The notes beneath the pieces are model-generated. The model saw only the letters and a program-made list of their open reading frames with translations, was not told the origin of the DNA and made no database searches. Below, piece by piece: positions 7,562 to 31,205 of a stretch of 64,000 bases of DNA. How positions within the stretch are numbered: the stretch's first letter is position 1; every line of letters begins with the position of its first letter. Source of the DNA: Minisyncoccota bacterium (GTDB lineage: Bacteria > Patescibacteriota > Minisyncoccia > Phycocordibacterales > UBA9973); contig DATKGV010000004.1 in the NCBI GenBank assembly GCA_035510575.1, forward strand, positions 88,419 through 152,418. The letters are read 5' to 3'. The translations under genes were made by a program, and so were the position numbers.

Positions 7562-7588
7562 AGTAAGCTAGGACAGTCCTAGCTTACT
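7562..7588. repeat. REP-like palindrome AGTAAGCTAGGACAGTCCTAGCTTACT (core AAGCTAGGACAGTCCTAGCTT)
   Basis: Near-perfect palindrome with an unpaired centre base. It overlaps the last codons and the TAG stop of the RAYT gene. Confidence 0.85.
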
Positions 7589-8343: not shown

Positions 8344-11300
8344 TTAATTTGCTGCATCACTTGGAGGAACTACAGGATCTGGAGCAGATGTAGAATCAGG
8401 CGCTGCAGGCGGAGTCACAACTTGATCGCTTGGGGGAACTGTTGTATCGTCTGCAGGCGGAGTTACTGATGAATCACTTGCAGGAGCTGTCGAATCTGAA
8501 GCTGGAACCGTTGAATCGGTGGTTGCGGGTTCGGTTGCAGATGGTGCTGATGAACCCGAATTGTCTGCGGTAGAGCTTACATGCGCATTATTTAAAATTT
8601 GAATCAATTGCGCTTCGTCAATGCAGGTATTATTGATGCAGATTTCATTGCTGCTATGAATTGTCTTGGCATACAGATCAGCGATGCCATTGGCTTGATC
8701 AGCTAAGAATTGCGTGATGAGCGAACCTAATGAAGTAGCCGAAGTCGTATCAAGAGACGAAAGATCTTTTATTTTGAGATCCATTTCTTGAATGGCTTTA
8801 ACCGCGTATGGCATCATGCCTAAGTAGTTGAGTGATAGAAGATTGGTATTTGGATCGGTAGAAACCAAATCAGGGAAGATTTGCTTTACATCTTGAGCAA
8901 TGAAGCCGGCATGCTTGGCATCGGTGTCTTGTTCAACTTTCCAATTATACGTTACTGGAACTAGAGCAAGTATTTTGTCCAGTGTTGTTATTGGAGTCGT
9001 GCCAAGTTCTGTTTCCGTCCATGCCATGCCATCTAGAGTGTTGACGTTCTTTTTTAAATTCATGTCTGAACTGCAAGCAAAACCGCTTGATATCGGCACA
9101 ACATCGCAAGTTCCTGCGGAAGTTTGAAATCTTCCTACAATTATATTAGCCGTAGTGGAAGCCGAGCCGACATGGAGAAGATAGCCGGGAGCAGTATTGG
9201 AAATTCCGACATCGCCGTTGCCTAATATTCTCATCGCTTCCGTCATTGTCTGCAATGTCGTGCCACTTCCAAGAGTTTTGCCCGTTGAGAAAATTATGTT
9301 CGAAGCTCCTGTGCCTGTGCCTAGACCAGAGTTTAGCAATAGATTTCCGCCAACCACGTTAGAAACAGAAGTTCCAGCGACAGTTGAACCTGATTGAATA
9401 GTCAGATTATTAGGCGCGACGTCAGTGGCGGAATTTTCAATCCACATGGTTCGATCAGCGCCGGCTCCGAATGATAAAATATTGGTCGGCGTACTTGTAC
9501 CAATACCCAAAGTCGTAATGCTGCTATTGCCTATCACCACCTGGTTGCTGGCGGTAGTGTAAGCGGCATTTCCCAGAGCCATTGAGTTGATAGCGCCTAC
9601 AAGCTGGCTGGCGTTACTTCCGGCGTTAGCTCCCAAAAATGTATTCTGATAGCCGACTGTTATAGACGAACCAGCCGAATTACCAATACCCGTATTAGAA
9701 CCATTATTTCCAGAACCATTCGTGAAAGAAGAAAGAGCGGAAACTCCGACAGCGACATTAGCGCCCGCGGCAGTAACGTTAGGCAGAGCGTTAGTTCCAA
9801 AAGCCGTATTGCCAGTAGTAGTTGTTTTTGCCAAAGCCCCATTGCCAACAGCCGTATTATTTCCTCCTGAAATATTTGCCGCCAGAGTGTTCCAACCAAT
9901 CGCTATATTTTGCGAGCCTGATGTCAATACATTCATAGCTCCTATGCCGATGCCGACATTCTTATCACCAGTCATTGCTGGCGGTCTGGCTCCAATAAGA
10001 ATTGAAAGAGGGTTAGCTGTGCCGATGCTCCCAGCGTTATAAACCGAGAATAGAGAACCGCCATTAGCGTCTGCCACGTTGAGAGTTGGAACATTTACTG
10101 TCGTGGTGATTGTCCAGGTAGCGCCTATGCCATGAGTAAGCTTTCCACCGAAAGTAACCGTCACGCCGTTAGATAATGCTTGAGCCGCAAGAGTAATCGC
10201 CGTATCAGCCGAACTAGCTCCGCCGTCCACATTCCAAGTGAACATATCATAACCCTGTAAAGCGGAAATATTGACTGTACAGCCCGTTCCAGTTCCGCCA
10301 GTTGTCGCTACTACTCCCGTTGAATATCCTGATCCGCCAGTCAAAAGTGTCATCGCATTACATCCCCCGCTTGATAAGCTCGTAACCTTTACGGTCGCCG
10401 CGCCATTGCCGCCAGTCAAAGTCAAAACATCATTCACTGTATAACCTGAACCGCCGACTGATTTGGCGACTGTCTTGACCGGATTTATCTCACTGATAGT
10501 AACGACATAAGACGAATTAGTATTGCCGACATAAGTTCCGCCCGCAGTAGCGTCGTTCGTTCCTGAACCTGAGAATACAACCGCTGACCGAGTCGCCAAA
10601 GATTTTACATCAAGAGTGGCGACGGGAGAAGTATTATTTATCCCTAGACGGATATTCGCCCCGTCATAAGCGGAACTAGCCCCGAAAAATATCTTGCCTT
10701 TCGTAGCGTTTGAAGTAGAATTTAAAGTTAGGTTTTCACCAGCGGCAGTACCGCCGTAAACAGTTTGCCCGCCGGCAATGCCGGTAGCCAGATTATCAGT
10801 AATGGTGTTTGTGGAACGAGTTAAGCCCGTGGAAAAAGTAAGAGGCACCTCGTAAGCGTTAGCGTTAGTGAACGCGGCTGAACCAAGAGTTCCCCCGCCA
10901 GTTGGAATAGTTAAAGTCGCTCCCGCCGCCGGCCAAGTTAAAGTTCCCGCCCCGCCGTTATTGGTGAATGTTGTAGTGAAAGTGGCGTTAGAAACGGCCA
11001 CTGCTGTTCCGCCCACTGCCAAAGCGCCAACGTCGGAATAAGTCAAATTCGTGCCATTGATTTTGTAATGAGAACCAGTCGCAATATTAACATCTCCATT
11101 AACATCTAATTTGTAGTTAGGCGCAGTTATTCCTATTCCCACTTTTTGAGCGCTATCTATTCTCATCGCTTCAGTCAAAACAGATGGCGAAGCGTCAGTC
11201 GCTGTAGAAAATGACAAATAAGTAGGAATACGAGTAGAAGCCACTGTACCGGAAACTCCGACATCTATGCTTCCCATTTCAAGATAACTTGCTCCGTCAT

Positions 11301-13992: not shown

Positions 13993-14775
13993 CTACTGTC
14001 TTCTTCTATTTCTTTTAATTCGCGAATTGACGACGAGCAAGTATATGACCGCTGCCAAGAGCAATATTATTATGATGATGAGAATATAAAGGATATGAAT
14101 AAGGTCTTCAACTGTTATGGTAATGGTGGTCGTATAAACATTATCGGAAAGGTGCAATACCGATTGAGTGGGCTGTAATTCTATCGGCTGTTCTGGAACA
14201 TTAGTCGTGGTTGCATTAGGATTTAATTGATTTTGCTGTTCTTCCGGCAGAGGCGAAGGAATATTTTCATTTGCTTTTATTTCGGGCTCGGAAATTGATA
14301 TCGTGCTACCGGATGTGCCATTGAGCGCGTCGCCGGCATTGCCGTCATTTAATAAAACCTTGCCGCTGGCGATATTGATATTCGCATTGCCCACTTCGAT
14401 AGCCCTGAAAGTTATATTGCCTAAAGTGCCGGCTGATCCTTTGTATCCCGGCGATATTATGCCAGCCGAGAAGAAAACTTTGGTCTGGCTTTTATAAGGC
14501 GATCCGGGAGTTTGCATAGTAAAGGTCTGGCCGGGAGACACGCTTACCACCTCAAGTTTGTCAGAACTGAAATTAATTGTCGCTTCAGCGACATTGACTC
14601 TAGCGCCTTTGGTATCGGTCTTGATGGTAACGGTAAAAGTGGAACCGAGAGTTGTATTATAGCTTGCGGGAGTTATATAGAGCGTAGCGGCATCAGCGCG
14701 ATTCGCAAACAGCGCCAAAAAAATCGCTATTACGGCAAAACCAATAATAAATCTTTTTATATTTTCTTTATGCAT
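13993..14775 (-). CDS. Cohesin-like domain protein with signal peptide and C-terminal TM anchor
   Basis: Signal peptide ...ANRADA. Cohesin-like block TLYITPASYNTTLGSTFTVTIKTD...VNVAEATINFSSDKLEVVSVSPG. C-terminal hydrophobic helix plus RIKRNRRRQ. Confidence 0.6.
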   Translation of the reverse strand: MHKENIKRFIIGFAVIAIFLALFANRADAATLYITPASYNTTLGSTFTVTIKTDTKGARVNVAEATINFSSDKLEVVSVSPGQTFTMQTPGSPYKSQTKVFFSAGIISPGYKGSAGTLGNITFRAIEVGNANINIASGKVLLNDGNAGDALNGTSGSTISISEPEIKANENIPSPLPEEQQNQLNPNATTTNVPEQPIELQPTQSVLHLSDNVYTTTITITVEDLIHILYILIIIIILLLAAVIYLLVVNSRIKRNRRRQ

Positions 14776-15913
14776 GATGATTTATGCTATAGCGCCTGAT
14801 TAAAACAAAGCCACCGACAATAATAATAATTATTCCAAGTATAGCACAATATGAAGCGAATGTTGAAAGATATCCGCGATAGTAAACAGCCGCTACGCTT
14901 TCGTTGCCAGCCAAATCAGTGGCTTTTATTTTTACAAGATTTCCAAAAAGAGGCGGATCAAGCGGATATGGGCTCGCAGCTTCATGATAAAATCCGAACC
15001 AGCCGGTTTTCACTTTATAGTTTGCAATGCCGGATGCCTTATCGACAGCGAAAAAATTCAAGAATGATTTGCCGTTGAACATGGAATCATTTTTATCGAT
15101 AATATCCGACAAAAATGTCGGGGCGGTCTTGTCAATTTGCACTCGATAGACCCCGGCCTCTTCCAATATGCCATTAACGGGAATCGCAAGCTTGAAATAA
15201 TATATTCCATCAGGCAGATTATCGTATGTAATAGGGCCTGTGATCGGTTTCGGCTGCATGCTTGGAATAATTTCCGGATTGCTGCCGAAGCTATAGCTGT
15301 AAAGCTCGCCCGTTTTCGCGCCGACAAGAATGACTACGGTATTGTCGCGATACCATTTATTTTCATCCGGATGCGTCGGAGAAGTTATGCTATAAAGTTT
15401 GTTATTCCCAGATAAGACGGAGAAAGCAAGCGGCCGCATGGTGAGAGGAACGACAGTTCCCAATCCGTCATGAAGAAGGACTCGTGTGGGATTAATCGTC
15501 ATTATAACGGCATTGCCGGCCATTTTGGCCTTAAAAACTGTCCGCAGTAATGGGATATGAGAGCCATTTATGCCGCCCGGCGCGCCTCCGGTGAAAGTTA
15601 TAACGCCCGGAGCTATGACTTTCGGCTGATCAACCCAAAGAAGCAAGGCCGATGAGCCGATTGAAACCTCGGTGCTCTCGAGGATATCTGGCGAATAGTA
15701 AAGCTTCGCATCGACAATATTTATGGTTTTGCCTTCCGTGTCTAAAAACCAATCAGCTGAAAAAGTATCGCCGGCATAGACCGTCTGCTCGGCTACGCTG
15801 ACTGAAAGATTGGCGGCATTTGCGATATGGCGAACGCCGGTAAAAGCGCCTAACAGCATGATTAAGAAAATTAATAATTTGCAAGTTATTTTTTTATTAT
15901 CCTGTCCAATCAT
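14768..15913 (-). CDS. Second cohesin-like surface protein with C-terminal TM anchor
   Basis: Signal peptide. Block SVSVAEQTVYAGDTFSADWFLDTEGKTINIVDAKLYYSPDILEST resembles cohesin. C-terminal TM ILGIIIIIVGGFVLI. Confidence 0.55.
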   Translation of the reverse strand: MIGQDNKKITCKLLIFLIMLLGAFTGVRHIANAANLSVSVAEQTVYAGDTFSADWFLDTEGKTINIVDAKLYYSPDILESTEVSIGSSALLLWVDQPKVIAPGVITFTGGAPGGINGSHIPLLRTVFKAKMAGNAVIMTINPTRVLLHDGLGTVVPLTMRPLAFSVLSGNNKLYSITSPTHPDENKWYRDNTVVILVGAKTGELYSYSFGSNPEIIPSMQPKPITGPITYDNLPDGIYYFKLAIPVNGILEEAGVYRVQIDKTAPTFLSDIIDKNDSMFNGKSFLNFFAVDKASGIANYKVKTGWFGFYHEAASPYPLDPPLFGNLVKIKATDLAGNESVAAVYYRGYLSTFASYCAILGIIIIIVGGFVLIRRYSINHHA

Positions 15914-17237
15914 AAAGCATTATTGAAAGATCAATGACATCGACTATGCCATCCTTATTAATATCCGCCCTTGACGTTGCCGGCGGCTTCTTATGCCAGT
16001 AATACAGTAGCATGGAAAAATCAATTATGTTAACTTTACCATCCTTGTTCAAATCGCTGCGCTTATATGAAACAACAGACGGCTTGACTGAAGTGGTTCC
16101 GACGCTAAAAGCCACAATATTGCTTGGATCGGTAATGCGGTCATTTATGGCTGCTCTGGAAAAAGTGCTGTGATTCCCAATAGCCAGCACTGAGGTGTCA
16201 AACTGCTTGAACCAAATGCCGGCGGTTGATGAGATTATTTTCTTTATGAATTCTTGCGCCGAATGCACGTACATCGTAACCTCGGCTTTCGGAACGGTCA
16301 TGCCGAAAATATTAATCGGGTCGCCTTTCTTGACTTCCGTATTGCTTACTCCGATGGTCGGAGCCAAGAAAATATTATTAATATGAATAGTTATGGAATC
16401 GCTGATGCTGACCGGGAAGCTGTAAGTCGGCGATTTCAATCCGTTCGCATCCACGGCATAGACGCCGAAGTTATAATAAGCTGTCGGAAGATTCGCCACA
16501 GTTACGTTGAAAGCGGCGCCCGGATCGGCTGTAGTGACCGAAGCTATCGTGCCGTCTTTAAGAATAGTGACTTTCGTATTCGGATAGGCCATGCCGGAAA
16601 TTTCAACAGATCCGCCGTAAGTTTGCGGATTGCCATTTCCGCCGCCATTATTATTTGGAGGAGGAGTAATTGGATTAGCGCCATTTGGCACGACAGAAAT
16701 TTGAGTAGAAAAAGCGATTGGAAAATTGCCGGTTGTCTTTGCCTTGACGATGAAATAATAAGTTACTCCATTAACTAATCCTCCTTTGGTGAAAGAATTC
16801 ACATTGCCAACATCTTCAAACGTGTAGGAATATGGCGTAGTACTGACGCCGACATCATATCCGATAATTGGAGGATGGCCGATTATAACCGGAGTTGTCC
16901 AGACCAATACGACGCTGCCGGCAGTATTTGTCGAGCTGGTTCCAAGAAGAGTGAATGTGCTGCTGTTATAATATTGAAAGCCGCTCCATAATTGGAAATC
17001 CGAAGATGATGATTTGCCGATGACCATTTGTCCGAGCGATTGCCCTAACCCGAAATTGGCCGAGGAACTGCTGCCAAGGCCTTCCGTAATGACCGGATTT
17101 AATACGGTAAAATTGCTTGAGGATATGGTTGCGCCAAAGCCCGGCATCGGTCTTGAAAAACCGACGATAACGACAATAAGAATTAAAATAGGGAAAAAAT
17201 AGAAATATCTCTTACTCACAAGCATATTATACAACAA
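15897..17237 (-). CDS. Secreted protein with FN3-like region and C-terminal type-I dockerin
   Basis: The C-terminus has two canonical dockerin Ca-binding repeats: SDLNKDGKVNIIDFSMLLYYW and ADINKDGIVDVIDLSIMLYDW. There is an N-terminal signal/anchor segment. Confidence 0.75.
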   Translation of the reverse strand: MLYNMLVSKRYFYFFPILILIVVIVGFSRPMPGFGATISSSNFTVLNPVITEGLGSSSSANFGLGQSLGQMVIGKSSSSDFQLWSGFQYYNSSTFTLLGTSSTNTAGSVVLVWTTPVIIGHPPIIGYDVGVSTTPYSYTFEDVGNVNSFTKGGLVNGVTYYFIVKAKTTGNFPIAFSTQISVVPNGANPITPPPNNNGGGNGNPQTYGGSVEISGMAYPNTKVTILKDGTIASVTTADPGAAFNVTVANLPTAYYNFGVYAVDANGLKSPTYSFPVSISDSITIHINNIFLAPTIGVSNTEVKKGDPINIFGMTVPKAEVTMYVHSAQEFIKKIISSTAGIWFKQFDTSVLAIGNHSTFSRAAINDRITDPSNIVAFSVGTTSVKPSVVSYKRSDLNKDGKVNIIDFSMLLYYWHKKPPATSRADINKDGIVDVIDLSIMLYDWTG

Positions 17238-18937: not shown

Positions 18938-20833
18938 ATGGAAGGCATAATTGGCATATCCAATAAGGGATTTGGAACCGTCAGAATTAAAAACAGCGAT
19001 GAAACAATAGAAATTGATCATAGTTTTCTGCGCACTGCCTGCCATGGCGACACGGTGAAAATACTTCTTCACCCAAAAAAACAAAATAACGGCGAAACCG
19101 GCGAAGTTTCTGAAATAATCAGAAGATCAAAAAAAGGATATTCAGGAATTATTGGCAATAAGAACGGCATATATTTTCTAATGCCCAGCGATTTGAAAAT
19201 GTATTCGGATATTATCATTCCAGAGAACAAATTAAATGGCGCCAAAATTGGACAGAAGGTCTTCGCGTCTATTACTGACTGGGCTGATGCAAAAGTTGCG
19301 CCGATTGGAGAAGTAATAAAAATTCTCGGCAGACCGATGGATAATAATGTGGAAATGGAAGCCATCGCCCTTGAGAAAGGTTTTGATTCAATCTTCCCTA
19401 TTCAAGTTTTGAAAGAAGCTCAAAAAATATCTGAAGATGGAATAAAAGGTAAAGATATGGAAAATCGCCGTGATATGAGAGGAGTGGCGACATTCACTAT
19501 TGATCCAGAAGATGCTAAAGATTTTGACGATGCTTTATCGTTTAAAAAGCTTCCAAACAGCCGTTATGAGATTGGTATTCATATTGCTGATGTTTCATAT
19601 TATGTAAAATTAAATACTGTCTTGGATCAAGAAGCTCGACTTCGGGGCACGTCTGTTTATCTAGTGGATCGCACAATTTCAATGCTGCCCGAAGAGCTTT
19701 CAAATGATCTCTGCAGTTTAAAGCCCAATGCTGATCGGCTGACATTTTCAGCCATTTTTGAGATTGACGAGTATGGGAAAGTTTGGAGCGGTTGGTTCGG
19801 CAGAACAATTATCAGATCCGATAAGCGCTTCACCTATGAAGGCGCCCAGAAAATTCTTGACGATAAAAAGGGCGAATTCTTCGAAGAACTTAATATACTA
19901 AACAGCATCGCAAAGAAACTTTTAAAAAAGCGCTTTGATGAAGGAGCCATATCGCTTGAGCAGGATGAAGTCAAATTCAAACTGGACGAAAAGGGCGTTC
20001 CTATTTCCGTTTATGTAAAGGTGCGCGGCGATACACATAAGCTGATTGAAGAATTCATGCTATTGGCCAATCGCAAGGTTGCGGAGGCATTGTCTCATGA
20101 AGATAAAAATAAGCAGAATATATCTCTTTATAGAATACATGATCTGCCTAATAAAGAAAAAATGAGGGACTTGGCGAATTTTTTCAAAAAATTGGGATAT
20201 AACGTAAAGCTTGCGAATGGCATTATTCCATCGGAAGAAATAAATGCGCTCGTTGCAAAATTTGAAAATAGCCCTATGCGCGATACTATCAGCACCGCTA
20301 TCGTTAGAACTATGGCCAAGGCGGCTTATTCGACAAAAAATATCGGGCATTATGGATTGGGTTTTGAGTTTTATACCCATTTCACTTCGCCAATTCGCAG
20401 ATATCCGGATATAATCGTTCATCGAATGCTTGCAGATTTCCTCAAGGGAAAAATAATACCCAAAGAGCATTGGGCGCTATACGAAGAGATGGCGTTGGAA
20501 GCGTCAAATCGCGAGAAGGAAGCTGCCGAAGCCGAGCGCGCGTCCATTAAATATAAGCAAGTGGAATATATGGGGAGCCGCATTGGAGAAAAATATGACG
20601 GTATGATTACAGGCGTCACCGAATGGGGGCTTTATATTGAAGATAACAAAACAAAATGCGAGGGCATGGTTAAAGTGCGCGATTTGAAAGATGATTATTA
20701 TGTTTTTGATAAAAAGAATATGAGCATAACCGGCAAGAAGACGCATAAAAGATATACATTAGGAAATAAAGTCAGATTTGAAGTTATAGGCGCCGATATG
20801 AATAAAAAGACGATAGATTATGCTTTGGTATGA
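18938..20833 (+). CDS. rnr: Ribonuclease R (RNB-family 3'-5' exoribonuclease)
   Basis: RNB motif TIDPEDAKDFDDALS. C-terminal S1-like block EKYDGMITGVTEWGLYIE. The track ORF starts at 18878, only 56 nt from the divergent rpsP start. The Met at 18938 (MEGIIGISNKGFGTV) is the more likely start. Confidence 0.88.
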   Translation: MEGIIGISNKGFGTVRIKNSDETIEIDHSFLRTACHGDTVKILLHPKKQNNGETGEVSEIIRRSKKGYSGIIGNKNGIYFLMPSDLKMYSDIIIPENKLNGAKIGQKVFASITDWADAKVAPIGEVIKILGRPMDNNVEMEAIALEKGFDSIFPIQVLKEAQKISEDGIKGKDMENRRDMRGVATFTIDPEDAKDFDDALSFKKLPNSRYEIGIHIADVSYYVKLNTVLDQEARLRGTSVYLVDRTISMLPEELSNDLCSLKPNADRLTFSAIFEIDEYGKVWSGWFGRTIIRSDKRFTYEGAQKILDDKKGEFFEELNILNSIAKKLLKKRFDEGAISLEQDEVKFKLDEKGVPISVYVKVRGDTHKLIEEFMLLANRKVAEALSHEDKNKQNISLYRIHDLPNKEKMRDLANFFKKLGYNVKLANGIIPSEEINALVAKFENSPMRDTISTAIVRTMAKAAYSTKNIGHYGLGFEFYTHFTSPIRRYPDIIVHRMLADFLKGKIIPKEHWALYEEMALEASNREKEAAEAERASIKYKQVEYMGSRIGEKYDGMITGVTEWGLYIEDNKTKCEGMVKVRDLKDDYYVFDKKNMSITGKKTHKRYTLGNKVRFEVIGADMNKKTIDYALV

Positions 20834-22491
20834 ATAAGAAATATATATTTATATGCCTGATAATTATAGCTTCCATAGCGGGATCGCTGACAGGCCTTGC
20901 AGTTGCTAAAAAATTAATAAATATAAAAGAAAATAATTTAACGGCGCAAGTTTTAGAAAATACAAATATTACACCGGTACAACAAATACCGGACACTACC
21001 CTATTTTTTGTCGGAGACATGATGCTTGATCGGAGCGTAAAATCATCCGTTATTAAAAATTTCAATGGAGATTACAGCAAGCTTTTTACAAATCTTGAAG
21101 ATTTAAAATCCGCCGACATACTATTTGCCAATCTTGAAGGCGATGTATCAGATGTTGGCAATAATGTGGGGAGCATTTATTCATTCCGCATGGATCCAAA
21201 AGTTTTGCCTGCAATTAAAGATGCCGGTTTTGATATTGTCTCATTTGCCAATAATCATGCCGGTGATTGGAATATAAAAGCATTTAAAGATACCTTATTG
21301 CGACTGCAAGATATAGGCATATTAGAAACCGGAGCAGGCATGACAGAAGCCGAAGCGGAAGCGCCGGCTATTATAGAAAAAAATGGTGTAAAATTCGGCT
21401 TTATCGGATTCTCCGATGTCGGACCAGATTGGCTTGCTGCGAAAGATAATGCTCCTGGTATATTGCTTGCAAGCGATCCAAACTTGCCTGACATAATTAA
21501 AAATGCAAAAGCGAACTGCGATGTGCTTATTGTATCATTCCACTGGGGCATAGAATATAAGACAATTCATAATAAACGGCAAGAAACTTTGGCTCATACT
21601 GCTATAGATAACGGCGCGGATATGGTAATAGGCAGCCATCCTCATGTCATGGAAGATATAGAGACCTATAATAATCGTCCGATAGTGTATTCGCTGGGCA
21701 ATTTTATTTTTGATCAATCTTTCTCAAAAGATACTATGCACGGCATGCTTTTTGAAGCTGTTTTTTCTGGTAATAAATTAAAAAGTACAACACAAAAGAT
21801 AATAGAATTAAATGAATTCTACCAGCCGGAAGGCATATTTGACTGGCAAGATCAAATTACAAACAAACCAGAAACACAGAAAATTTTTTCATGCCCGAAA
21901 CCGACAAAAGAATATGAAGATGAAACTTATTTAAATATAGATCAAACAGTCAACCTTCCCGATGCTTCATATATTCCGTCTGATTTGGAAAAATTGCCTA
22001 AAAATATTTCAACTTCAAATATATGCCTTATAAAGGAAGCCAAAGACGCGCTTGAAGATATGCTTGAAGCTGCAAGCGAAGCCGGTTACACAATAGTGGC
22101 TTCTTCAGGATTCCGCGATTATGATACGCAAAAAGGCATATTTGATAATGATTTAAAAACAAAAAATATAGATGTTTCTAATTCAGTCGCCAAACCGGGG
22201 TTTTCCGAACACCAGCTGGGTGTGGCAGTAGATCTGACAAGCAAATCGATAGCATATGCATCGGCGAGCGGTAAGTTTGAAAATACAAATGAGGCGAAAT
22301 GGCTGGAAGCTAACGCATATCTGTATGGATTTATTCAAAGCTATCCAAAAGGCAAGGAAGATATTACCGGCTATATGTATGAACCGTGGCACTATCGCTA
22401 TGTCGGCGTAGAAAATGCTTTGGAGATAATAAAAACCGGAGAAACTGTAAATCAGTTTTTGAAAGACAAAATAGATCAGGAAACTCTTTAA
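20830..22491 (+). CDS. Membrane-anchored fusion: CapA/PGA-capsule-synthesis-like metallophosphatase plus VanY-type D-Ala-D-Ala carboxypeptidase (M15B)
   Basis: N-terminal TM. CapA-like blocks (FFVGDMMLDRSV, FANLEGDVSD, HWGIEY). C-terminal LAS/VanY motifs (SGFRDYDTQ, SEHQLGVAVDL, EPWHYRYVG). Confidence 0.7.
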   Translation: MNKKYIFICLIIIASIAGSLTGLAVAKKLINIKENNLTAQVLENTNITPVQQIPDTTLFFVGDMMLDRSVKSSVIKNFNGDYSKLFTNLEDLKSADILFANLEGDVSDVGNNVGSIYSFRMDPKVLPAIKDAGFDIVSFANNHAGDWNIKAFKDTLLRLQDIGILETGAGMTEAEAEAPAIIEKNGVKFGFIGFSDVGPDWLAAKDNAPGILLASDPNLPDIIKNAKANCDVLIVSFHWGIEYKTIHNKRQETLAHTAIDNGADMVIGSHPHVMEDIETYNNRPIVYSLGNFIFDQSFSKDTMHGMLFEAVFSGNKLKSTTQKIIELNEFYQPEGIFDWQDQITNKPETQKIFSCPKPTKEYEDETYLNIDQTVNLPDASYIPSDLEKLPKNISTSNICLIKEAKDALEDMLEAASEAGYTIVASSGFRDYDTQKGIFDNDLKTKNIDVSNSVAKPGFSEHQLGVAVDLTSKSIAYASASGKFENTNEAKWLEANAYLYGFIQSYPKGKEDITGYMYEPWHYRYVGVENALEIIKTGETVNQFLKDKIDQETL

Positions 22492-23632: not shown

Positions 23633-25927
23633 TTACTTAGCGTACGCGCTTGCATCTTCAAGGTGAATTGAGAAAAGCTTGGAAGCGCCTTCGGCGCCCA
23701 TCGTTACGCCGTAAAGCACATTGGCTCGCGACATGGTCTCGCGATTATGAGTTACAACTATGAGTTGTGAAAATTTCGACAAATTCAGGAGCATATCCCC
23801 ATACTTGCGGGAATTCGATTCATCAAGCGCGGCATCCGTCTCATCAAGCACTAAAAATGGCGGCGGATTAACTTGGGAAATGGCAAAAAGAAGCGCAATT
23901 GACGTGAGCGATCGCTCGCCGCCGGAGAGCATATGCAGATCTTTTACTTTTTTCTTCGGCAAAGTCACATTAATCTCAATTCCCCTCTCAAATTCCAATT
24001 CCGTCTCTTCTTGTCCCAGTTCATCTGCGTCATTTGATTCGCCATCTTCTGAAATAGATTCATCTCTGTCAGATAGCATATTTCTCGGACGCTTATGTTC
24101 CATAGTAATCGAGATAAATGCCGAACCGCCGCCGAACATAAGAGAGAATAAATTCTGAAATTGCTTGTTAATTTTAGCCACTCCGTCCTTAAATTCCGCG
24201 TCCAGCTTTTCTTTTAATTCCTGTATGAGCAATTTGAGAGAGTCAATGCTTTTATTCAAATCGTCAATTTCTTTAGCAAGAAATTTATCACGCTCTTCCG
24301 CATCTTCATATTCCTTCATCACATCGGAGCCGCTGCCGCTGCCTGCATCTTCAAGCTTGATTTTTATGCGCTCAATTTTGCGCCGAAGCTCATCCATAAA
24401 TGAGCGCGATATTTCATTGCCCGCTTCAAGACGCGCATACGATGCAACTTCGCGGCCTACAAATCCTGCCGCTTCGGATAATTCTATTTCAAAAGAATTT
24501 TTAATTAGCGCCAAATTTTCCTCTTCAAAATGGAGCCCTTTCATATCAGCATCTACTTTATTCTTTTCATTAAGGAGCTCATAAAACAGCCGCTCGTTAT
24601 TACGCAGAGCTGATTGAGATTCCTGCTCTTTTTGCTTAAGATTCCCTATTATTTTTACAATATCAAGTTCTTCTTCTTTTATTTTTTTTAAATCAGATGT
24701 TATGCCATTTTTCGCATTCTGCATTTCCATATATTCTTTATTTTCATTCAGGGAAAGTTTTTTATTGTCAATCATCTCGGATTTCGGCAAAAATTCCGAG
24801 AGTTTGGATTTCATATTTCTAAGAATCCTCCCTATATTCGGCAAATCCGTCGATGCGATGGCCTCGTCAATGCGCGATTCAAGATCTTTCATGAATGATT
24901 TCCATTCAGATTCAGATATTACACGCTCTTTTTTTAGGGATATATTTGCAAATTGCCGTTCTAATCCCTCTATAATTCCCTCAATACGGCCAAGAGAGCG
25001 CGCCAAATCGTCTTTCTTTTCGCGGATTAAAGATAAATCATTATCATAGCTCTTTATTTGTTTTTCATGCTCGCTTTCAATTGCATTTTCATTTTTCTTC
25101 CTCTGCAACGATGAAATTTTCTCATCAAGCGAAAGTCCCTGTTCTAGAAGCGCGCTGCGCAAGCCGGCCAGGCGCTTAGTTTCATTATTTATATATGTCG
25201 ATTCATTTGAAAAATATGTCTTATAAAGATCCTTAAGTTCTTCCCGCATTAAGCGCGATTTTTCTATGACTTGGACTTGTTTTTTTAGAAATGCCAAATG
25301 CGGGGCGATTTCTCGGCGCTGCATCTGCGCTTCTTTCATATTTAGAAGGGTTTTATCAATCTTGCGTTCAGATTCGCGAATCCTATATTGGTAAATTTTC
25401 AACCCGAGAGCATCCTCAATCATGGCGCGCCTGTCTTTATTGGAAGCGTTGAGAACGTGGTCGGATTCGCCCTGCGAGATGATATGGTGGCCTGAGCTCC
25501 CGATATTCACCGATGCAAGCAGGTCGACAATATCTTTTAACCGCACTTCAGTGCCATTGATACTGTAGCGATTTATCCCATCGGAAAAAACTTCGCGGCC
25601 TATGACTATTTCATCATAATCAAGAGGTATGCCGAGCCCGCTATTCGTAAATGAAAAAATTTTCCGGCTATTGTCAAAGGTAATCGACACCAGAGCGCGA
25701 TTGGCGGAAGGCAAAGTTTTCGATCCCTTGAAGATAAGATCAACTCCGCCTTTGCCGCGAAGTGATTTCATGGATTGCTCGCCAAGGACAAAACGAATAG
25801 CCTCGACAATATTGGATTTGCCGGATCCGTTTGGCCCGACAATGGCGGTGATGGGCGCCGCAAACATGACGGAACTTTTCCGGCCGAACGATTTAAACGA
25901 CGCAAGCTCGATATTTTTCAAAGTCAT
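23633..25927 (-). CDS. smc: Short SMC-family chromosome partition ATPase
   Basis: Walker A GPNGSGKSN. C-terminal signature LSGGERSLTSIALLFA plus Walker B LVLDETDAALD. Coiled-coil middle. Sits in the rnc-smc synteny. Only 764 aa. Confidence 0.75.
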   Translation of the reverse strand: MTLKNIELASFKSFGRKSSVMFAAPITAIVGPNGSGKSNIVEAIRFVLGEQSMKSLRGKGGVDLIFKGSKTLPSANRALVSITFDNSRKIFSFTNSGLGIPLDYDEIVIGREVFSDGINRYSINGTEVRLKDIVDLLASVNIGSSGHHIISQGESDHVLNASNKDRRAMIEDALGLKIYQYRIRESERKIDKTLLNMKEAQMQRREIAPHLAFLKKQVQVIEKSRLMREELKDLYKTYFSNESTYINNETKRLAGLRSALLEQGLSLDEKISSLQRKKNENAIESEHEKQIKSYDNDLSLIREKKDDLARSLGRIEGIIEGLERQFANISLKKERVISESEWKSFMKDLESRIDEAIASTDLPNIGRILRNMKSKLSEFLPKSEMIDNKKLSLNENKEYMEMQNAKNGITSDLKKIKEEELDIVKIIGNLKQKEQESQSALRNNERLFYELLNEKNKVDADMKGLHFEEENLALIKNSFEIELSEAAGFVGREVASYARLEAGNEISRSFMDELRRKIERIKIKLEDAGSGSGSDVMKEYEDAEERDKFLAKEIDDLNKSIDSLKLLIQELKEKLDAEFKDGVAKINKQFQNLFSLMFGGGSAFISITMEHKRPRNMLSDRDESISEDGESNDADELGQEETELEFERGIEINVTLPKKKVKDLHMLSGGERSLTSIALLFAISQVNPPPFLVLDETDAALDESNSRKYGDMLLNLSKFSQLIVVTHNRETMSRANVLYGVTMGAEGASKLFSIHLEDASAYAK

Positions 25928-25928
25928 A

Positions 25929-26627
25929 TTATTTTTCCAGCCAATCTTTAACTTCTAATGCAAGCTTGGCCGCTTCCTGCTCGGCTTCCTGCTTGCTGTG
26001 GCCTTTGCCCTCCGCAATGCGATCATCGCCGAAGAATATGCCGACGGTAAAATGCTTATCATGATCAGGGCCGGACTCGTTTAAAACTTTGTATGAAGGA
26101 GTTATATTCAAATATTCCTGGGATTTTTCCTGAATCAAGCTCTTGGCATCGCGCCACAGCTTCTTGGAAACAATAGTATCGACTTTGACAAGCAATGTGC
26201 GCGATATGAATTGCAAGGCCTTTTCATATCCTTGATCCAAATATACCGCTCCGACATAGGATTCGTAAGTATTGGCCAAGATATAGCTGCGAGCTTTGCC
26301 GATATCTTTGGCTTCGCCTTTTGAAAGAAGCAGGTAATCGTTCATTCCGAGAGATAAAGCTACTTCGCCGATAATAACGGCATTAACAAGAGCTGACCTA
26401 TAAGCGGTCAAGTCGCCTTCGTCGCGATCAGGATATTTTTTATACAGATAATCGGTGACGATGAGTTCAAGCACTGCGTCGCCTAAGAATTCCAAACGTT
26501 CATTGTGCGACAGCTTTGAATCGTTATTTTCATTTATATAGGAACGATGAATAAACGCCTGTTCGAGCAGTTTTTTGTTTTTAAAAAAAATATTTGTCTT
26601 GTTTTCGAATTCAGAAAAATCAATCAT
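25929..26627 (-). CDS. rnc: Ribonuclease III
   Basis: Signature ERLEFLGDAVLEL. C-terminal dsRBD-like region. Confidence 0.9.
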   Translation of the reverse strand: MIDFSEFENKTNIFFKNKKLLEQAFIHRSYINENNDSKLSHNERLEFLGDAVLELIVTDYLYKKYPDRDEGDLTAYRSALVNAVIIGEVALSLGMNDYLLLSKGEAKDIGKARSYILANTYESYVGAVYLDQGYEKALQFISRTLLVKVDTIVSKKLWRDAKSLIQEKSQEYLNITPSYKVLNESGPDHDKHFTVGIFFGDDRIAEGKGHSKQEAEQEAAKLALEVKDWLEK

Positions 26628-26633
26628 AAAAAA

Positions 26634-27593
26634 TTAATTCGCTTTTTTTGTAAGAATCTCTATCGCTTTAGTTAAAAGAGGTACCATGTTGTCATACATT
26701 TTAAGATTCGGAATTTCTTCAAGCGCAAACCATCTTGCGTCATCCAATCCTCCAGTGCCTTTTTCAAGGACAATATTTGCATACGGAGATTCGCCGAGAA
26801 AGAATACGACTTGCTTGCGAATTTTCCCTTTTTCCGGATGCGAGGCTATATATTCATTGCGTCCAAGCAATTCTTTTATTTTAATATCAAGGCCCATTTC
26901 TTCCTTTATCTCGCGAATGGCGCCTTGTTCTTCATTTTCATTTTCTTCAATGCTTCCTTTAGAAAGAGTCCAGTAGCCAAACACGTCATGAACGAAGGCG
27001 AAATAAATTTGGCTGTTTTCTATCGCATAAACGACGGCGCCGGCTTTTTTCTCTATCGGGAATTTAGCGGGATCAGTTTCAAAATGCTTGTTCTTCCTGC
27101 TGACATCATTCTTGCCTGGCTCGCCTATTTCCTTATAGACCCCGCCCAGAACTCCGTTTATGAATTTGCTGGAGTTTTCCCCGCCGAAACTCTTGGCAAG
27201 CTCGATTGATTCGTTGATTGCCACTTTGGGCGGCACTTCCTTATGATCGCCGAACAATAATTCATATAATCCTATACGCAGAATATTGCGGTCCACTATT
27301 GATATCTTATCAATCGGCCAATCCGGAGCGGCTTTCTCGATGATTTCATCGATAATCGGCTTTTTCTTTATAATGCCGAGAAAAAGCTCCTGCATAAATT
27401 GCGAGTCGTCAAGCCCCGGTCCGAATTCTAGAATGTTGCGATTAAGCATCTCTTTTGGATTCATTTCATTATTCAATGAAAAATCCCACTCAAAGAGCGT
27501 CTGAAGAACAATTGAACGTGAAAGGTGCCTGTTTGCCATAAAAAATCTAGAAAATAAAATCTTGAAATGTTTCTTGTATAAGAAACATTTCAA
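26634..27593 (-). CDS. nusB: NusB-like antitermination domain fused to a NUDIX hydrolase
   Basis: N-terminal NusB blocks (RHLSRSIVLQTLFEWDF...ILRIGLYELLF...FINGVLGGV). C-terminal Nudix box GSIEENENEEQGAIREIKEEMGL. Confidence 0.75.
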   Translation of the reverse strand: MKCFLYKKHFKILFSRFFMANRHLSRSIVLQTLFEWDFSLNNEMNPKEMLNRNILEFGPGLDDSQFMQELFLGIIKKKPIIDEIIEKAAPDWPIDKISIVDRNILRIGLYELLFGDHKEVPPKVAINESIELAKSFGGENSSKFINGVLGGVYKEIGEPGKNDVSRKNKHFETDPAKFPIEKKAGAVVYAIENSQIYFAFVHDVFGYWTLSKGSIEENENEEQGAIREIKEEMGLDIKIKELLGRNEYIASHPEKGKIRKQVVFFLGESPYANIVLEKGTGGLDDARWFALEEIPNLKMYDNMVPLLTKAIEILTKKAN

Positions 27594-27597
27594 GATT

Positions 27598-27807
27598 TTA
27601 TTTTTTCTTTTTAGCTTGCTTCTTCTCTACTTTCTTTACCACATCTATAACCTTGCGCCCGTTGTAAAAACCGCAATTTTTGCAAATTATATGAGTTTCC
27701 TTTGCTCCCTTGCAATTTGAACACGTGGCAAAAACCTTGGCTTTCAAGGCATGATGTGATCGGCGGTTCCCCGTATGAGCTCGCGTATGTCGCATTCGTA
27801 CTACCAT
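27598..27807 (-). CDS. rpmF: 50S ribosomal protein L32
   Basis: RMRHTRAHTGNRRSHHAL N-terminal block plus a CxxC...CxxC zinc ribbon. Confidence 0.7.
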   Translation of the reverse strand: MVVRMRHTRAHTGNRRSHHALKAKVFATCSNCKGAKETHIICKNCGFYNGRKVIDVVKKVEKKQAKKKK

Positions 27808-27889: not shown

Positions 27890-28624
27890 TTATTTGTTAG
27901 CAGTTAAAAACTTATTTAACTTGAAAGCATTCGGATGAAATCCTAATCTAATAGTTTGGGCTAATCCTTCCTGGAATTTTGATTGATGACCATTAAACAA
28001 ACTACTTGCTGTATGTTCATCAATATACTCCCAAAATGACTCCAAAACTTTTGGATCAGTTAAACTTTTGTAATAAATTGGAGCTTCTACTTCCACTGAA
28101 GTAAATCCAATTTTATGATGACCCTTACTGTCCGAAGGAGCTGAGGAGATATAAAAGTTACCCATTTTAGATGCATCTGTTTCTTCTCGAAGTTCATGCT
28201 TAACTGTATTTAAGTGGGTATTCTTTAAAATTTCCTTAAACTCTTCTGTCTTTAATGATTTACAATTTTGTAATTTTTTATGTAATTCAGCTGTAAATTC
28301 ATTAAAATACCTATTACGCAAATCCTGATCTTGAGTTGATTTATCAAGGAATTCATATCCTTTATTAAGATTCTCAGCTTCATAAGTAAGAAATACTAAA
28401 TCTCTGTGATCATCATTTTGTTCTAAAAATGAATTAATAGCAAGTAATAAATCTGCAACTCTGAATTTTCCTGCAGGTAATCTTTTTGATGGTTTTTCAA
28501 ATTCATTCTGGTATTTAACAAGAAGAATCTTTGGGTCCTCATTCAAATTAAAAGCTGCAATAGATACAGCATAATTGAGGGTATTTGGATCCTCAACTAA
28601 CGGAATAAAATCTTTGCTTTCCAT
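27890..28624 (-). CDS. Hypothetical protein (compositionally distinct, AT3-rich codons)
   Basis: 244-aa ORF with no confident motif; there is a weak, degenerate Nudix-like segment GKFRVADLLLAINSFLEQ. Its codon usage (tta, aga, third-position A/T) differs from the neighbouring core genes. Confidence 0.5.
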   Translation of the reverse strand: MESKDFIPLVEDPNTLNYAVSIAAFNLNEDPKILLVKYQNEFEKPSKRLPAGKFRVADLLLAINSFLEQNDDHRDLVFLTYEAENLNKGYEFLDKSTQDQDLRNRYFNEFTAELHKKLQNCKSLKTEEFKEILKNTHLNTVKHELREETDASKMGNFYISSAPSDSKGHHKIGFTSVEVEAPIYYKSLTDPKVLESFWEYIDEHTASSLFNGHQSKFQEGLAQTIRLGFHPNAFKLNKFLTANK

Positions 28625-30464: not shown

Positions 30465-30487
30465 TCCCATAGGTCTGACCTATGGGA
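30465..30487. repeat. REP-like palindrome TCCCATAGGTCTGACCTATGGGA
   Basis: Palindrome with arms of about 11 bp and an unpaired centre base. Lies 3 nt after the thrS stop and contains the TAG stop of RAYT2. Confidence 0.85.
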
Positions 30488-31205
30488 TTTGGTCATGGTC
30501 TAAATTAATCCAATTAAAAAGATCATTTATATGAGAATTCTTTAGATATTCAGGTAAAAATTTTTTATTAATAATTTTAATTTCTTTTCTATTTTCTAAA
30601 AAATAATCATAAAAACTGGAGTAGTAGTATTTTTTTAAATATTCTTTCGCTTTATTTTTATCTTTAATTCCCTTTTGTTTCCAGTCTGATTGAATTAATT
30701 TTATAGGGTTTAGATGTATATATGAAAATAAATAATTAAAATAGTTCTCTTCTTTTACAATTTTAGATTTAAATTTTCCTTCAAATAATGATCCAGTACG
30801 ACTATATTTTTTATTAAAGTACATTGCATAAGCAGTAGATAGTTTCCTCATGAATTCAGTAATTGGATTATATTCTTCTTCCCATAGGTCAGACCTATGG
30901 GAAATAACAAATAAATGAAAATGGTTAGGCATTAACACCCAAGCTAGTATAGATACAATAGGTGTTCCTATTTCAAAATCAAAAGCTTCAATTTTGGGAT
31001 TAACTATATTTTCACGAAAAACAAGCTTTCTTTTGGAATTACAGACATAAAGCAATTTAATAAAATGATCATAATCTTCTTTGTCTAAGAAAATATCATT
31101 TTTACCATTTCCACGATTATATAAATGGTAATATTCTTTACAAACTAAATTTTCTACTCTTAATCCCATAGTTATATTATATAATAATAGATACAAATCT
31201 CCCAT
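30480..31205 (-). CDS. HUH-family Y1 transposase (RAYT / IS200-like), second copy type, with an in-frame internal palindrome
   Basis: Motifs YHLYNRG, NHFHLFV and YIHLNP. The likely true start is MGLRVENL (ATG rc 31167..31169). The annotated ATG at 31203..31205 is itself created by the upstream palindrome. Residues SHRSDLWEE are encoded by the internal palindrome at 30879..30903. Confidence 0.7.
   Translation of the reverse strand: MGDLYLLLYNITMGLRVENLVCKEYYHLYNRGNGKNDIFLDKEDYDHFIKLLYVCNSKRKLVFRENIVNPKIEAFDFEIGTPIVSILAWVLMPNHFHLFVISHRSDLWEEEYNPITEFMRKLSTAYAMYFNKKYSRTGSLFEGKFKSKIVKEENYFNYLFSYIHLNPIKLIQSDWKQKGIKDKNKAKEYLKKYYYSSFYDYFLENRKEIKIINKKFLPEYLKNSHINDLFNWINLDHDQIP
30879..30903. repeat. 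Internal copy of the RAYT2 palindrome (TTCCCATAGGTCAGACCTATGGGAA) inside the RAYT2 coding sequence
   Basis: Same arms as the flanking copies, but the centre base is inverted (GGTCAGACC versus GGTCTGACC). It is in-frame and corresponds to an extra segment relative to RAYT1, placed right after the HUH motif. Confidence 0.85.

What the first reader, a model, noticed from the sequence alone, without database searches (positions are those of the whole stretch)
26634..27593. NusB fused to a NUDIX hydrolase, adjacent to rnc
A single ORF joins a complete NusB antitermination domain to a C-terminal Nudix domain with an intact Nudix box (GSIEENENEEQGAIREIKEEMGL). If the Nudix part acts on RNA 5' ends (RppH-like) or on nucleotide alarmones, the fusion would couple RNA end chemistry to the transcription antitermination complex. 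The gene sits directly upstream of RNase III.
Basis: partly seen in the sequence, partly recalled or inferred. Interest (0 to 1): 0.5.

Follow-up and report, generated by a model that had tools for sequence, protein, structure and literature searches.

The report
NusB fused to a Nudix domain
In a large group of ultra-small Patescibacteria, the rRNA transcription factor NusB carries an extra Nudix domain of the diadenosine-polyphosphate-hydrolase type; the fusion is real, conserved and undescribed, and its role can so far only be inferred.

Summary
It consists of a canonical NusB domain, a roughly 20-aa disordered linker and a Nudix domain with a perfect Nudix box. It lies 6 nt upstream of rnc, in a tight rpmF-nusB::nudix-rnc-smc operon. 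It is not a frameshift artefact: all 80 related genomes inspected, of at least 484 with a relative, keep one continuous ORF and the same gene order. All named sources are Patescibacteria (Paceibacteria class).

By sequence profile and predicted fold the Nudix domain is an asymmetric Ap4A/Ap6A-hydrolase type (Aquifex aq_158, Thermus Ndx1, NUDT2). RppH and Dcp2 are more distant relatives.

The new point concerns catalysis. The catalytic glutamates are 93-100% conserved in this gene's own clade but are lost repeatedly in distant orthologues (E210 kept in 22%). The residues that align with NUDT2's adenine-stacking and phosphate-binding residues stay about 80-93% conserved.

I therefore read the domain as an adenine-polyphosphate-binding module tethered to NusB and still hydrolytic in this genome. 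Its target is not established: Np4/triphosphate RNA 5' ends or free ApnA. No literature describes this fusion.

The parts
26634..27539 (-). nusB::nudix coding sequence (301 aa plus stop), starting at the ATG at 27537-27539
   Evidence: An identical 301-aa protein, P0001, is in NCBI. Homologues all start at this Met.
27120..27539 (-). NusB domain (aa 1-140)
   Evidence: PF01029 E 4e-34 and TIGR01951 121 bits against a cut-off of 88. PDB sequence hits are Thermotoga NusB 1tzt (1.3e-20) and E. coli NusB including the entries 5ms0/6tqn/6tqo. Foldseek TM 0.86 to E. coli NusB 3imq. R4, R8, Q13, D83, L87, R88, E93, F126 and G129 are nearly invariant.
27060..27119 (-). Flexible linker (aa 141-160). 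It begins with a conserved GEPxK motif and is otherwise poorly conserved.
   Evidence: pLDDT is below 50 for residues 145-154. Mean column conservation is 0.28, against 0.56 for NusB and 0.43 for Nudix. GEPxK occurs in 214/260 full-length members.
26637..27059 (-). Nudix domain of the Ap4A/Ap6A-hydrolase type (aa 161-301)
   Evidence: PF00293. The family profile against PDB gives Aquifex Ap4A hydrolase 2.9e-19, CT771 2.4e-14, NUDT2 8.5e-14 and Ndx1 9e-13. Foldseek TM 0.90 to 3i7u and 0.87 to 1vc8.
26889..26957 (-). Nudix box GSIEENENEEQGAIREIKEEMGL (aa 195-217), with catalytic/metal-binding residues E201, R209, E210, E213 and E214
   Evidence: Read directly from the sequence and confirmed. In the clade of at least 60% identity (n=201), conservation is R209 99%, E210 99%, E213 93% and E214 100%.
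25929..26627 (-). rnc (RNase III), 6 nt downstream of the fusion's stop codon
   Evidence: TIGR02191 237 bits. It occupies the same position in all 79 related loci that extend past the fusion gene and in a 36%-identical orthologue.
27598..27807 (-). rpmF (ribosomal protein L32), the first gene of the conserved block
   Evidence: PF01783. It is conserved upstream of the fusion in 75 of the 80 loci; the other five start too close to the contig end.
27556..27599 (-). A 20-25 bp perfect AU-rich hairpin in the 58-nt rpmF-nusB spacer, followed by a U-rich tract. It could be a terminator/attenuator or an RNase III site.
   Evidence: MFE -33.8 kcal/mol, z = -10.6. Strong hairpins with unrelated sequences occur at the same place in 37/69 related loci, against 0 in shuffled controls.
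23633..25927 (-). smc (764 aa), the last gene of the conserved block, 1 nt after rnc
   Evidence: It is conserved in most related loci. SMC_N domains are found in the orthologous locus.

Best explanation
This is the NusB of a Paceibacteria (Patescibacteria) genome. A Nudix domain of the asymmetric Ap4A/Ap6A-hydrolase type is attached to it through a flexible linker of about 20 residues.

Shown:
- The fusion is real and conserved in hundreds of species, and sits in an rpmF-nusB::nudix-rnc-smc operon.
- The NusB part is canonical.
- The Nudix part has the Ap4A-hydrolase fold. It keeps the residues that align with the adenine-stacking and P1-phosphate-binding residues of Ap4A hydrolases.
- In this gene's clade it also keeps every catalytic residue.

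Inferred:
- NusB, with S10, binds boxA on nascent pre-rRNA (and other boxA transcripts) at the RNA exit of RNA polymerase. The tethered Nudix domain is therefore held at the antitermination complex.
- There it binds, and in this clade hydrolyses, an adenine-nucleotide polyphosphate group.
- My preferred target is the 5'-terminal Np4/triphosphate group of the nascent leader RNA, or the ApnA that would otherwise prime such caps. This would add 5'-end deprotection to the co-transcriptional RNase III processing that the Nus complex already promotes.
- In the many distant orthologues that have lost the catalytic glutamates, the same pocket would only bind the ligand.
For: - Domains and motif.
At least 484 species genomes encode a relative. 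All 80 loci inspected have a continuous ORF, with rnc directly downstream wherever the contig extends, rpmF upstream in 75 and smc in 73. The same order holds in a 36%-identical orthologue on a 657-kb contig.
- Structure: the AF2 model has pLDDT 91.4, two well-folded domains and a disordered linker.
- NusB domain: TM 0.86 to E. coli NusB, and sequence hits to the NusB chains of 5ms0 and 6tqn/6tqo, which I recognise as the lambda-N and rrn antitermination complexes.
- Nudix domain: the nearest solved structures are Aquifex Ap4A hydrolase (TM 0.90; profile E 2.9e-19), Ndx1, NUDT2, CT771 and the mycobacterial diadenosine polyphosphatase MutT1. Dcp2 scores 3.5e-10.
- Residue mapping: the alignment to human NUDT2, together with PMC4734340, maps K194 to Lys42 (P1 phosphate), Y230 to Tyr82 and Y282 to Phe128 (adenine stacking).
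- Conservation: these residues are 100% conserved in the close clade and 78-93% in distant members. Catalytic R209, E210 and E214 are 99-100% conserved in the close clade.
- Precedent: Nudix enzymes of this branch act on RNA 5' ends and Np4 caps (RppH: PMC8833179, PMC7044304). [quoted passage not shown]
Against: - No biochemical data exist for any member.
- In 46 of 59 distant cluster representatives E210 is lost. E210 is conserved at only 22%, ranking 114th of 135 columns. Hydrolysis is therefore dispensable in most of the family, which fits a binding or sensing role at least as well as an enzymatic one.
- No inter-domain interface is predicted (pTM 0.60), and the linker is poorly conserved.
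- The Nudix domain is acidic (pI about 5.1) and shows no evident RNA-binding surface.
- The domain scores far below the cut-off for every RppH model.
- NusB-only relatives with the same rpmF-nusB-rnc order exist, so the Nudix domain is an accessory and the link to rnc is inherited from NusB.
- The distance from the transcript 5' end to boxA in these genomes is unknown.
Confidence: 0.45

Rival explanations
1. Ligand sensor, following the logic of NrtR and CFIm25. The Nudix domain binds free Ap4A or a related alarmone and thereby modulates the assembly of NusB with S10, boxA or polymerase. This would tune rRNA transcription and processing to the cell's translational or stress state. Where hydrolysis is retained, it only resets the sensor.
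For: The residues aligned with ligand-pocket positions (K194, Y230, Y282, W190, W270) are retained in 38-43 of the 46 orthologues that lost catalytic E210. Members with an intact box are scattered across the tree, which implies repeated loss of catalysis without loss of the domain. There are precedents. [quoted passage not shown] Non-catalytic Nudix domains typically sit in multidomain proteins and bind small molecules (PMC5389931). The NrtR and AraR Nudix regulators appear among the fold and profile hits.
Against: In this gene's own clade the catalytic residues are 99-100% conserved, so turnover matters here. The linker is flexible and poorly conserved, and no docked state is predicted, which makes allosteric transmission hard to picture. 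No ligand has been identified.
Confidence: 0.2
2. Functionally unlinked fusion. A housekeeping Ap4A/NTP 'house-cleaning' hydrolase became fused to NusB during genome streamlining, so it is simply co-expressed and has no role in transcription.
For: The linker is flexible and no interface is predicted. NusB-only relatives exist. The domain looks like an ordinary small Ap4A hydrolase.
Against: A house-cleaning enzyme that loses its catalytic glutamates should decay or be deleted. Instead, the dead-box orthologues keep a full-length domain (median 140 aa) with conserved residues at the pocket-aligned positions, and stay fused at the same locus. The fusion is stable across proteins only 31-35% identical.
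Confidence: 0.15
3. Structural accessory of the antitermination complex, analogous to SuhB. SuhB is an enzyme-fold protein (an inositol monophosphatase) that stabilises the E. coli rrn complex. The Nudix domain would act here mainly as a protein-protein scaffold.
For: Catalysis is dispensable in most of the family. SuhB is an integral component of the rrn antitermination complex (PMC6614797, PMC6614801), and its recruitment stabilises the complex and boosts RNase III processing (bioRxiv 10.64898/2026.03.17.712431).
Against: Several of the most conserved residues of the domain (K194, Y230, Y282) align with nucleotide-contacting residues of Ap4A hydrolases, not with an obvious separate surface patch. 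Whether these genomes lack SuhB was not tested.
Confidence: 0.1
4. Artefact. Two adjacent genes, nusB and a nudix gene, were merged by a sequencing or assembly error.
For: One related contig (L083) has separate nusB and nudix gene calls.
Against: The L083 split is a single in-frame TAA within the otherwise continuous reading frame (GAV*KELGEP). All 80 independent genomes and hundreds of independent metagenome clusters carry one ORF of about 300 aa.
Confidence: 0.01

Closest known systems
NusB (E. coli, Thermotoga, Aquifex): the antitermination factor that binds boxA RNA together with S10/NusE
   Same: The N-terminal 140 aa score above the TIGR01951 equivalog cut-off. They have the same all-helical fold (TM 0.86, 36% identity to E. 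coli NusB). The N-terminal arginines and the core motif KVAINE.IELAK.FG...S.KF.NGVL are conserved.
   Different: This protein carries about 160 extra C-terminal residues (linker plus Nudix domain). The known NusB multidomain relative, RsmB, fuses a NusB-like domain to a methyltransferase, not to a Nudix domain (RsmB models match only through the NusB-like part).
Asymmetric Ap4A/Ap6A hydrolases of the Nudix family (Aquifex aq_158 3i7u, Thermus Ndx1 1vc8, human NUDT2 3u53, Chlamydia CT771)
   Same: These are the best sequence-profile and fold matches. The Nudix box is canonical. Equivalents of NUDT2 Lys42, Tyr82 and Phe128 are conserved (PMC4734340).
   Different: Those enzymes are stand-alone single-domain proteins, whereas this domain is tethered to NusB. 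Identity is only 22-29%. The substrate is untested. Most distant orthologues of the fusion have lost the catalytic glutamates.
RppH and Dcp2 (Nudix RNA 5'-end pyrophosphohydrolase and decapping enzymes)
   Same: They belong to the same broad branch of Nudix enzymes. RppH models are matched by 21/28 family members and Dcp2 by the family profile at 3.5e-10. Like Dcp2, this protein pairs an N-terminal helical domain with a Nudix domain, and the helical partner brings the enzyme to its RNA or complex.
   Different: Scores are far below the RppH cut-offs (25.6 against 118 bits). The NusB domain is not homologous to the Dcp2 regulatory domain: the two-domain Foldseek alignments have rmsd of 11-12 A. 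No RNA activity has been shown.
Non-catalytic Nudix modules: NrtR regulators and CFIm25 (NUDT21)
   Same: In these proteins a Nudix fold serves as a ligand-binding module joined to, or working with, a nucleic-acid-binding function. Catalytic residues are lost while ligand binding is kept (PMC2425470, PMC5389931). This matches the pattern in the distant orthologues.
   Different: The protein in this window has a fully intact box. The partner domain binds RNA within a transcription elongation complex, rather than DNA (NrtR) or a pre-mRNA 3'-end signal (CFIm25).
SuhB in the E. coli rRNA antitermination complex
   Same: SuhB is an enzyme-fold protein recruited into the Nus complex, where it stabilises the complex and promotes RNase III processing (PMC6614797, PMC6614801; bioRxiv 10.64898/2026.03.17.712431).
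   Different: SuhB has a different fold (inositol monophosphatase) and is a separate polypeptide. This is a functional analogy only.

Membership tests
NusB (TIGR01951 / PF01029) | Score above the curated family cut-off | tested here: met
   TIGR01951 121.2 bits against 88.35; PF01029 118 bits against 23.1.
NusB (TIGR01951 / PF01029) | All-helical NusB fold | tested here: met
   The AF2 model has seven helices at pLDDT above 90. Foldseek TM 0.86 and rmsd 1.6 A to E. coli NusB 3imq.
NusB (TIGR01951 / PF01029) | Binds S10/NusE and boxA RNA and acts in antitermination | not testable with these tools
   Only indirect evidence is available. R4 and R8 align with E. coli R6 and R10, and position 16 (F or Y) aligns with E. 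coli Y18.
NusB (TIGR01951 / PF01029) | Is the genome's only NusB | tested here: inconclusive
   There is no other NusB-like ORF in the 64-kb window. The rest of the genome could not be searched.
Nudix hydrolase superfamily (PF00293) | Nudix box Gx5Ex7REUxEExGU and a score above the cut-off | tested here: met
   The box matches exactly. PF00293 scores 51.6 bits against 21.1.
Nudix hydrolase superfamily (PF00293) | Alpha/beta/alpha Nudix fold | tested here: met
   Foldseek TM 0.86-0.90 to solved Nudix enzymes.
Asymmetric Ap4A/ApnA hydrolase (NUDT2 / aq_158 / Ndx1 type) | Closest relatives by sequence profile and by fold | tested here: met
   The profile gives 3i7u 2.9e-19, CT771 2.4e-14, NUDT2 8.5e-14, Ndx1 9e-13 and C. 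elegans 2.5e-12. Foldseek ranks 1-3 are 3i7u and 1vc8.
Asymmetric Ap4A/ApnA hydrolase (NUDT2 / aq_158 / Ndx1 type) | Substrate-contacting Lys (P1 phosphate) and two aromatic residues that stack the adenine | tested here: met
   K194, Y230 and Y282 align with NUDT2 Lys42, Tyr82 and Phe128 (residue roles from PMC4734340). They are 100% conserved in the close clade.
Asymmetric Ap4A/ApnA hydrolase (NUDT2 / aq_158 / Ndx1 type) | Hydrolyses Ap4A (or Ap5A/Ap6A) asymmetrically | not testable with these tools
   This needs an enzyme assay.
RppH (NCBIfam NF001934-NF001938) | Score above the equivalog cut-off | tested here: not met
   The best score is 25.6 bits against a cut-off of 118.
RppH (NCBIfam NF001934-NF001938) | Removes pyrophosphate, phosphate or Np4 caps from RNA 5' ends | not testable with these tools
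   This needs an assay on ppp-, pp- and Np4-RNA.
Non-catalytic Nudix modules (NrtR / CFIm25 type) | Loss of catalytic Glu residues of the box with a retained fold | tested here: not met
   The window protein has all of E201, R209, E210, E213 and E214. The feature is met in 46/59 distant orthologue clusters.

The most novel reading that the evidence does not exclude
NusB delivers a Nudix 'decapping' or cap-reading domain to the 5' end of nascent boxA-bearing transcripts (pre-rRNA). Paceibacteria would then have a co-transcriptional 5'-end surveillance step built into the antitermination complex. In clades like this one, Np4A or triphosphate ends would be hydrolysed. In the dead-box clades the domain would act as a bacterial 5'-cap-binding module. 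In either case it would link aminoacyl-tRNA-synthetase-made ApnA alarmones directly to ribosome production.
Probability: 0.2. Interest if true: 0.8.

Novelty: new variant of a known kind. Interest (0 to 1): 0.55.

Why it matters
NusB is a universal and almost invariably single-domain component of the bacterial rRNA antitermination and chaperone complex. A nucleotide-polyphosphate-binding or -hydrolysing domain permanently attached to it, across hundreds of species, implies an extra input or activity at that complex. That input could be alarmone sensing or RNA 5'-end chemistry, and neither is known in model bacteria. The family also offers a natural experiment: catalytically intact and catalytically dead versions sit at the same locus, which makes the question directly testable with recombinant proteins. 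It could also connect the still unclear biology of Ap4A and Np4 caps to ribosome synthesis. Public annotation currently names these proteins only 'NusB', so the Nudix part is invisible to database users.

Tried and rejected
- **Single-sequence AF2 prediction** gave an unusable model (pLDDT 36.6). It was repeated with a 52-sequence alignment.
- **The afdb50 fold library** was unavailable, so I could not survey this architecture in UniProt or AFDB.
- **The 'split gene' lead.** L083 has separate nusB and nudix calls, but this is one in-frame stop codon in a continuous frame. It is not an ancestral unfused state.
- **A second Nudix or NusB gene nearby.** HMMs built from the family found none in the window. 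The neighbouring 244-aa ORF (27890-28624), which contains 'ELREETD', is not Nudix-like (E = 3) and has no Pfam or NCBIfam hit.
- **The hairpin as a repeated REP-like element** linked to the two IS200-like genes. The arm sequence occurs only once in the window, as the two arms of the hairpin itself.
- **Isoelectric point as a test of RNA binding.** Both domains are acidic, including the RNA-binding NusB domain, so this is uninformative.
- **Literature searches** for NusB with Nudix, fusion or Patescibacteria found nothing relevant. The Nudix-clan review does not mention NusB in its main text.
- **Rfam** found no RNA family in the window, so no rrn leader or boxA could be examined.

Full report
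**What is there.** The real start is almost certainly the ATG at 27539, giving 301 aa. A 301-aa protein that is 100% identical over its full length is deposited at NCBI (P0001). Every aligned homologue begins at this methionine. The 18 extra codons overlap a very stable hairpin.

Pfam finds NusB at residues 7-136 (E 4e-34) and NUDIX at 188-284 (E 1e-13). The NCBIfam nusB equivalog model scores 121 bits against a cut-off of 88. The motif GSIEENENEEQGAIREIKEEMGL (aa 195-217) fits the Nudix box Gx5Ex7REUxEExGU at every defined position.

The stop codon lies 6 nt before the ATG of a canonical RNase III gene (25929-26627; TIGR02191 237 bits). That gene is followed after 1 nt by smc. rpmF (L32) lies 58 nt upstream. 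The factual observation is confirmed.

**Not an artefact, and not rare.** The best 120 are all about 300 aa and all carry both Pfam domains. The names given by sources are Candidatus Nomurabacteria, Paceibacterota or Patescibacteria, and the product is called simply 'NusB'.

All 80 loci retrieved hold one continuous ORF of about 299-306 aa. Wherever the contig extends that far, they show the same order rpmF - fusion - rnc - smc.

An exhaustive HMMER search of 1.84 billion 50%-identity cluster representatives found 163 clusters at E < 1e-30. These include full-length two-domain proteins down to about 31-35% identity. One of them (P0186, 36% identity, on a 657-kb contig) again sits between rpmF and rnc-smc. 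The one apparent 'split' version (L083) is a single in-frame TAA in an otherwise continuous frame.

**The two domains.** With a 52-sequence alignment, AlphaFold2 gives a confident model (mean pLDDT 91.4). It shows a seven-helix N-terminal domain, a disordered segment at residues 145-154 and an alpha/beta/alpha C-terminal domain. The pTM of 0.60 means the relative orientation of the domains is not defined.

The NusB domain matches Thermotoga NusB (1.3e-20). It also matches the E. coli NusB chains of PDB entries 5ms0 and 6tqn/6tqo, which I recognise as the lambda-N and rrn antitermination complexes. Its TM-score to E. coli NusB is 0.86. Its N-terminal arginines (R4, R8) and its core motif are nearly invariant in the family.

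The nearest solved relatives of the Nudix domain are asymmetric dinucleoside-polyphosphate hydrolases:
- Foldseek gives TM 0.90 to Aquifex Ap4A hydrolase and 0.87 to Thermus Ndx1 (an Ap6A hydrolase). Next come mycobacterial MutT1/Rv2985, the C. elegans and human Ap4A hydrolases, and CT771.
- A profile of 28 family members gives 3i7u 2.9e-19, CT771 2.4e-14, NUDT2 8.5e-14, Ndx1 9e-13 and Dcp2 3.5e-10.
- No NCBIfam equivalog is reached. RppH models are matched by the most members (21/28) but at about 25 bits against cut-offs of 116 bits or more.

The domain therefore belongs to the Ap4A-hydrolase/RppH branch and is not an RppH by the curated test.

**The unexpected result: catalysis is optional in the family, the aligned pocket residues are not.** Sequences at 60% identity or more to the query (n = 201, a redundant set) conserve R209 at 99%, E210 at 99%, E213 at 93% and E214 at 100%.

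Among 59 more distant cluster representatives the figures are E210 22% (rank 114 of 135 domain columns), R209 56%, E213 53% and E214 69%. Only 11 of these keep all three glutamates.

On a neighbour-joining tree the intact-box members are scattered. This suggests an active ancestor and many independent losses.

The domain is nevertheless never degraded. In the 46 representatives lacking E210 its median length is 140 aa. Counts there are K194 43/46, W270 41/46, Y282 41/46, W190 40/46 and Y230 38/46, plus 4 with Phe at position 230.

The alignment to human NUDT2 and the roles described in PMC4734340 give this mapping: K194 corresponds to Lys42 (P1 phosphate), Y230 to Tyr82 and Y282 to Phe128 (the two adenine-stacking residues).

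The family-wide conserved property therefore appears to be binding of an adenine-nucleotide polyphosphate. Hydrolysis is under strong selection in this gene's own clade but has been abandoned elsewhere. This is the pattern known from non-catalytic Nudix modules:
- CFIm25 binds but does not hydrolyse Ap4A and ATP within an RNA-processing factor (PMC2425470).
- Non-catalytic Nudix domains typically sit in multidomain proteins and bind small molecules (PMC5389931).

**Context.** The rnc adjacency is inherited rather than specific to the fusion. A relative 54% identical in the NusB part has rpmF - nusB (144 aa) - rnc with no Nudix domain. About 27 NusB-only clusters of similar divergence were seen. 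The Nudix domain is thus an accessory gained, or sometimes lost, within an older rpmF-nusB-rnc arrangement.

That arrangement makes biological sense. [quoted passage not shown] No second NusB or Nudix gene lies in the window. The rest of the genome could not be searched.

**How it most likely works.**

Shown:
- A canonical NusB is joined to an Ap4A-hydrolase-type Nudix domain by a flexible tether.
- Catalytic residues are intact and conserved in this clade.
- The residues aligned with ligand contacts of Ap4A hydrolases are conserved throughout the family.

Inferred:
- NusB-S10 binding to boxA places the tethered domain at the RNA exit of the transcribing polymerase.
- There it binds, and in this clade hydrolyses, an adenine-polyphosphate group.
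- I favour the 5'-terminal Np4 or triphosphate group of the nascent leader, or the ApnA that primes such caps. Proximity is the obvious benefit of tethering, and enzymes of this branch do act on such ends (PMC8833179, PMC7044304).

I give this reading about 0.45. The rivals are:
- An Ap4A-type ligand sensor that modulates NusB (0.2). It is favoured by the dead-box orthologues and disfavoured by the strong conservation of catalysis here.
- A functionally unlinked house-cleaning enzyme (0.15). It is disfavoured because dead-box domains are retained with conserved residues at the pocket-aligned positions.
- A SuhB-like scaffold (0.1). It is disfavoured because the ligand-contact-aligned residues are among the most conserved.
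- An artefact (about 0.01).

**Novelty and score.** Both domains are well known, and these proteins have been in public databases for years under the name NusB. I found no paper that describes or discusses a NusB-Nudix fusion, and the main Nudix-clan review does not mention NusB.

I class it as a new variant of a known kind. It is a lineage-wide accessory domain on a universal transcription factor, with a clear and experimentally tractable split between catalytic and non-catalytic forms. Interest is 0.55: a specialist would find it notable rather than astonishing. It offers a concrete way to test a link between ApnA or Np4-cap biology and rRNA synthesis.

Noticed in passing
window 27556-27599 (minus strand), between the rpmF stop codon and the nusB::nudix ATG: A perfect AU-rich hairpin of 20-25 bp followed by a U-rich tract (MFE -33.8 kcal/mol, z = -10.6). 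It overlaps the rpmF stop codon and ends 16 nt before the ATG. Strong hairpins with unrelated sequences occupy the same spacer in 37/69 related loci, against none in shuffled controls. It could be an rpmF terminator or attenuator. Because it is a long perfect duplex at the head of an operon that encodes RNase III, it could also be an RNase III autoregulatory site. It is unique in the window, so it is not a repeat element.
   Followed up: partly
window about 27108-27122 (aa 140-144, GEPGK), and family alignments: A short GEPxK motif directly after the NusB domain occurs in 214/260 full-length fusion proteins. It also appears in the tails of some NusB-only relatives (P0208, P0253). It may be a lineage-specific short linear motif at the NusB C-terminus that is independent of the Nudix domain.
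   Followed up: partly
L084 513-947, and L083 542-1459: L084 is a related contig with rpmF - nusB (144 aa, no Nudix) - rnc, which shows that the Nudix domain is an accessory. In L083 the fusion gene is interrupted by one in-frame TAA at the Tyr of 'GAVYKE'. This could be a nonsense mutation, a sequencing error or read-through.
   Followed up: partly
window 7579-8259 (-) and 30480-31205 (-): Two genes with weak IS200-like Y1 transposase hits (27 and 25 bits). They may be domesticated or REP-associated tyrosine-transposase-like proteins. Their relationship to each other was not examined.
   Followed up: no
window 8344-13923 (-), 13993-14775 (-), 15897-17237 (-): A giant 1859-aa ORF has a Peptidase_S74 (endosialidase chaperone) domain near its C-terminus. 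Next to it are genes with cohesin and with dockerin/fn3/Big_6 domains. This looks like a cell-surface or attachment cluster, typical of epibiotic Patescibacteria.
   Followed up: no
window 20830-22491 (+): A single ORF combines a PGA_cap (capsule synthesis) domain with a VanY D-Ala-D-Ala carboxypeptidase domain. This is another domain fusion in the same window.
   Followed up: no
window 27890-28624 (-): A 244-aa ORF upstream of rpmF has no Pfam or NCBIfam hit. Homologues (32-38% identity) were seen at the same position in only 3 of 80 related loci (L013, L023, L049). It contains an 'ELREETD' string but is not Nudix-like by HMM.
   Followed up: partly
window 1-64000: No Rfam family reaches its gathering score anywhere in the 64 kb, so there is no tRNA, rRNA or riboswitch. 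The window does hold many core genes: rpoB, rpoC, trmD, RNase R, smc (only 764 aa), rnc, thrS, gyrB, pheST and purB/C/M.
   Followed up: no
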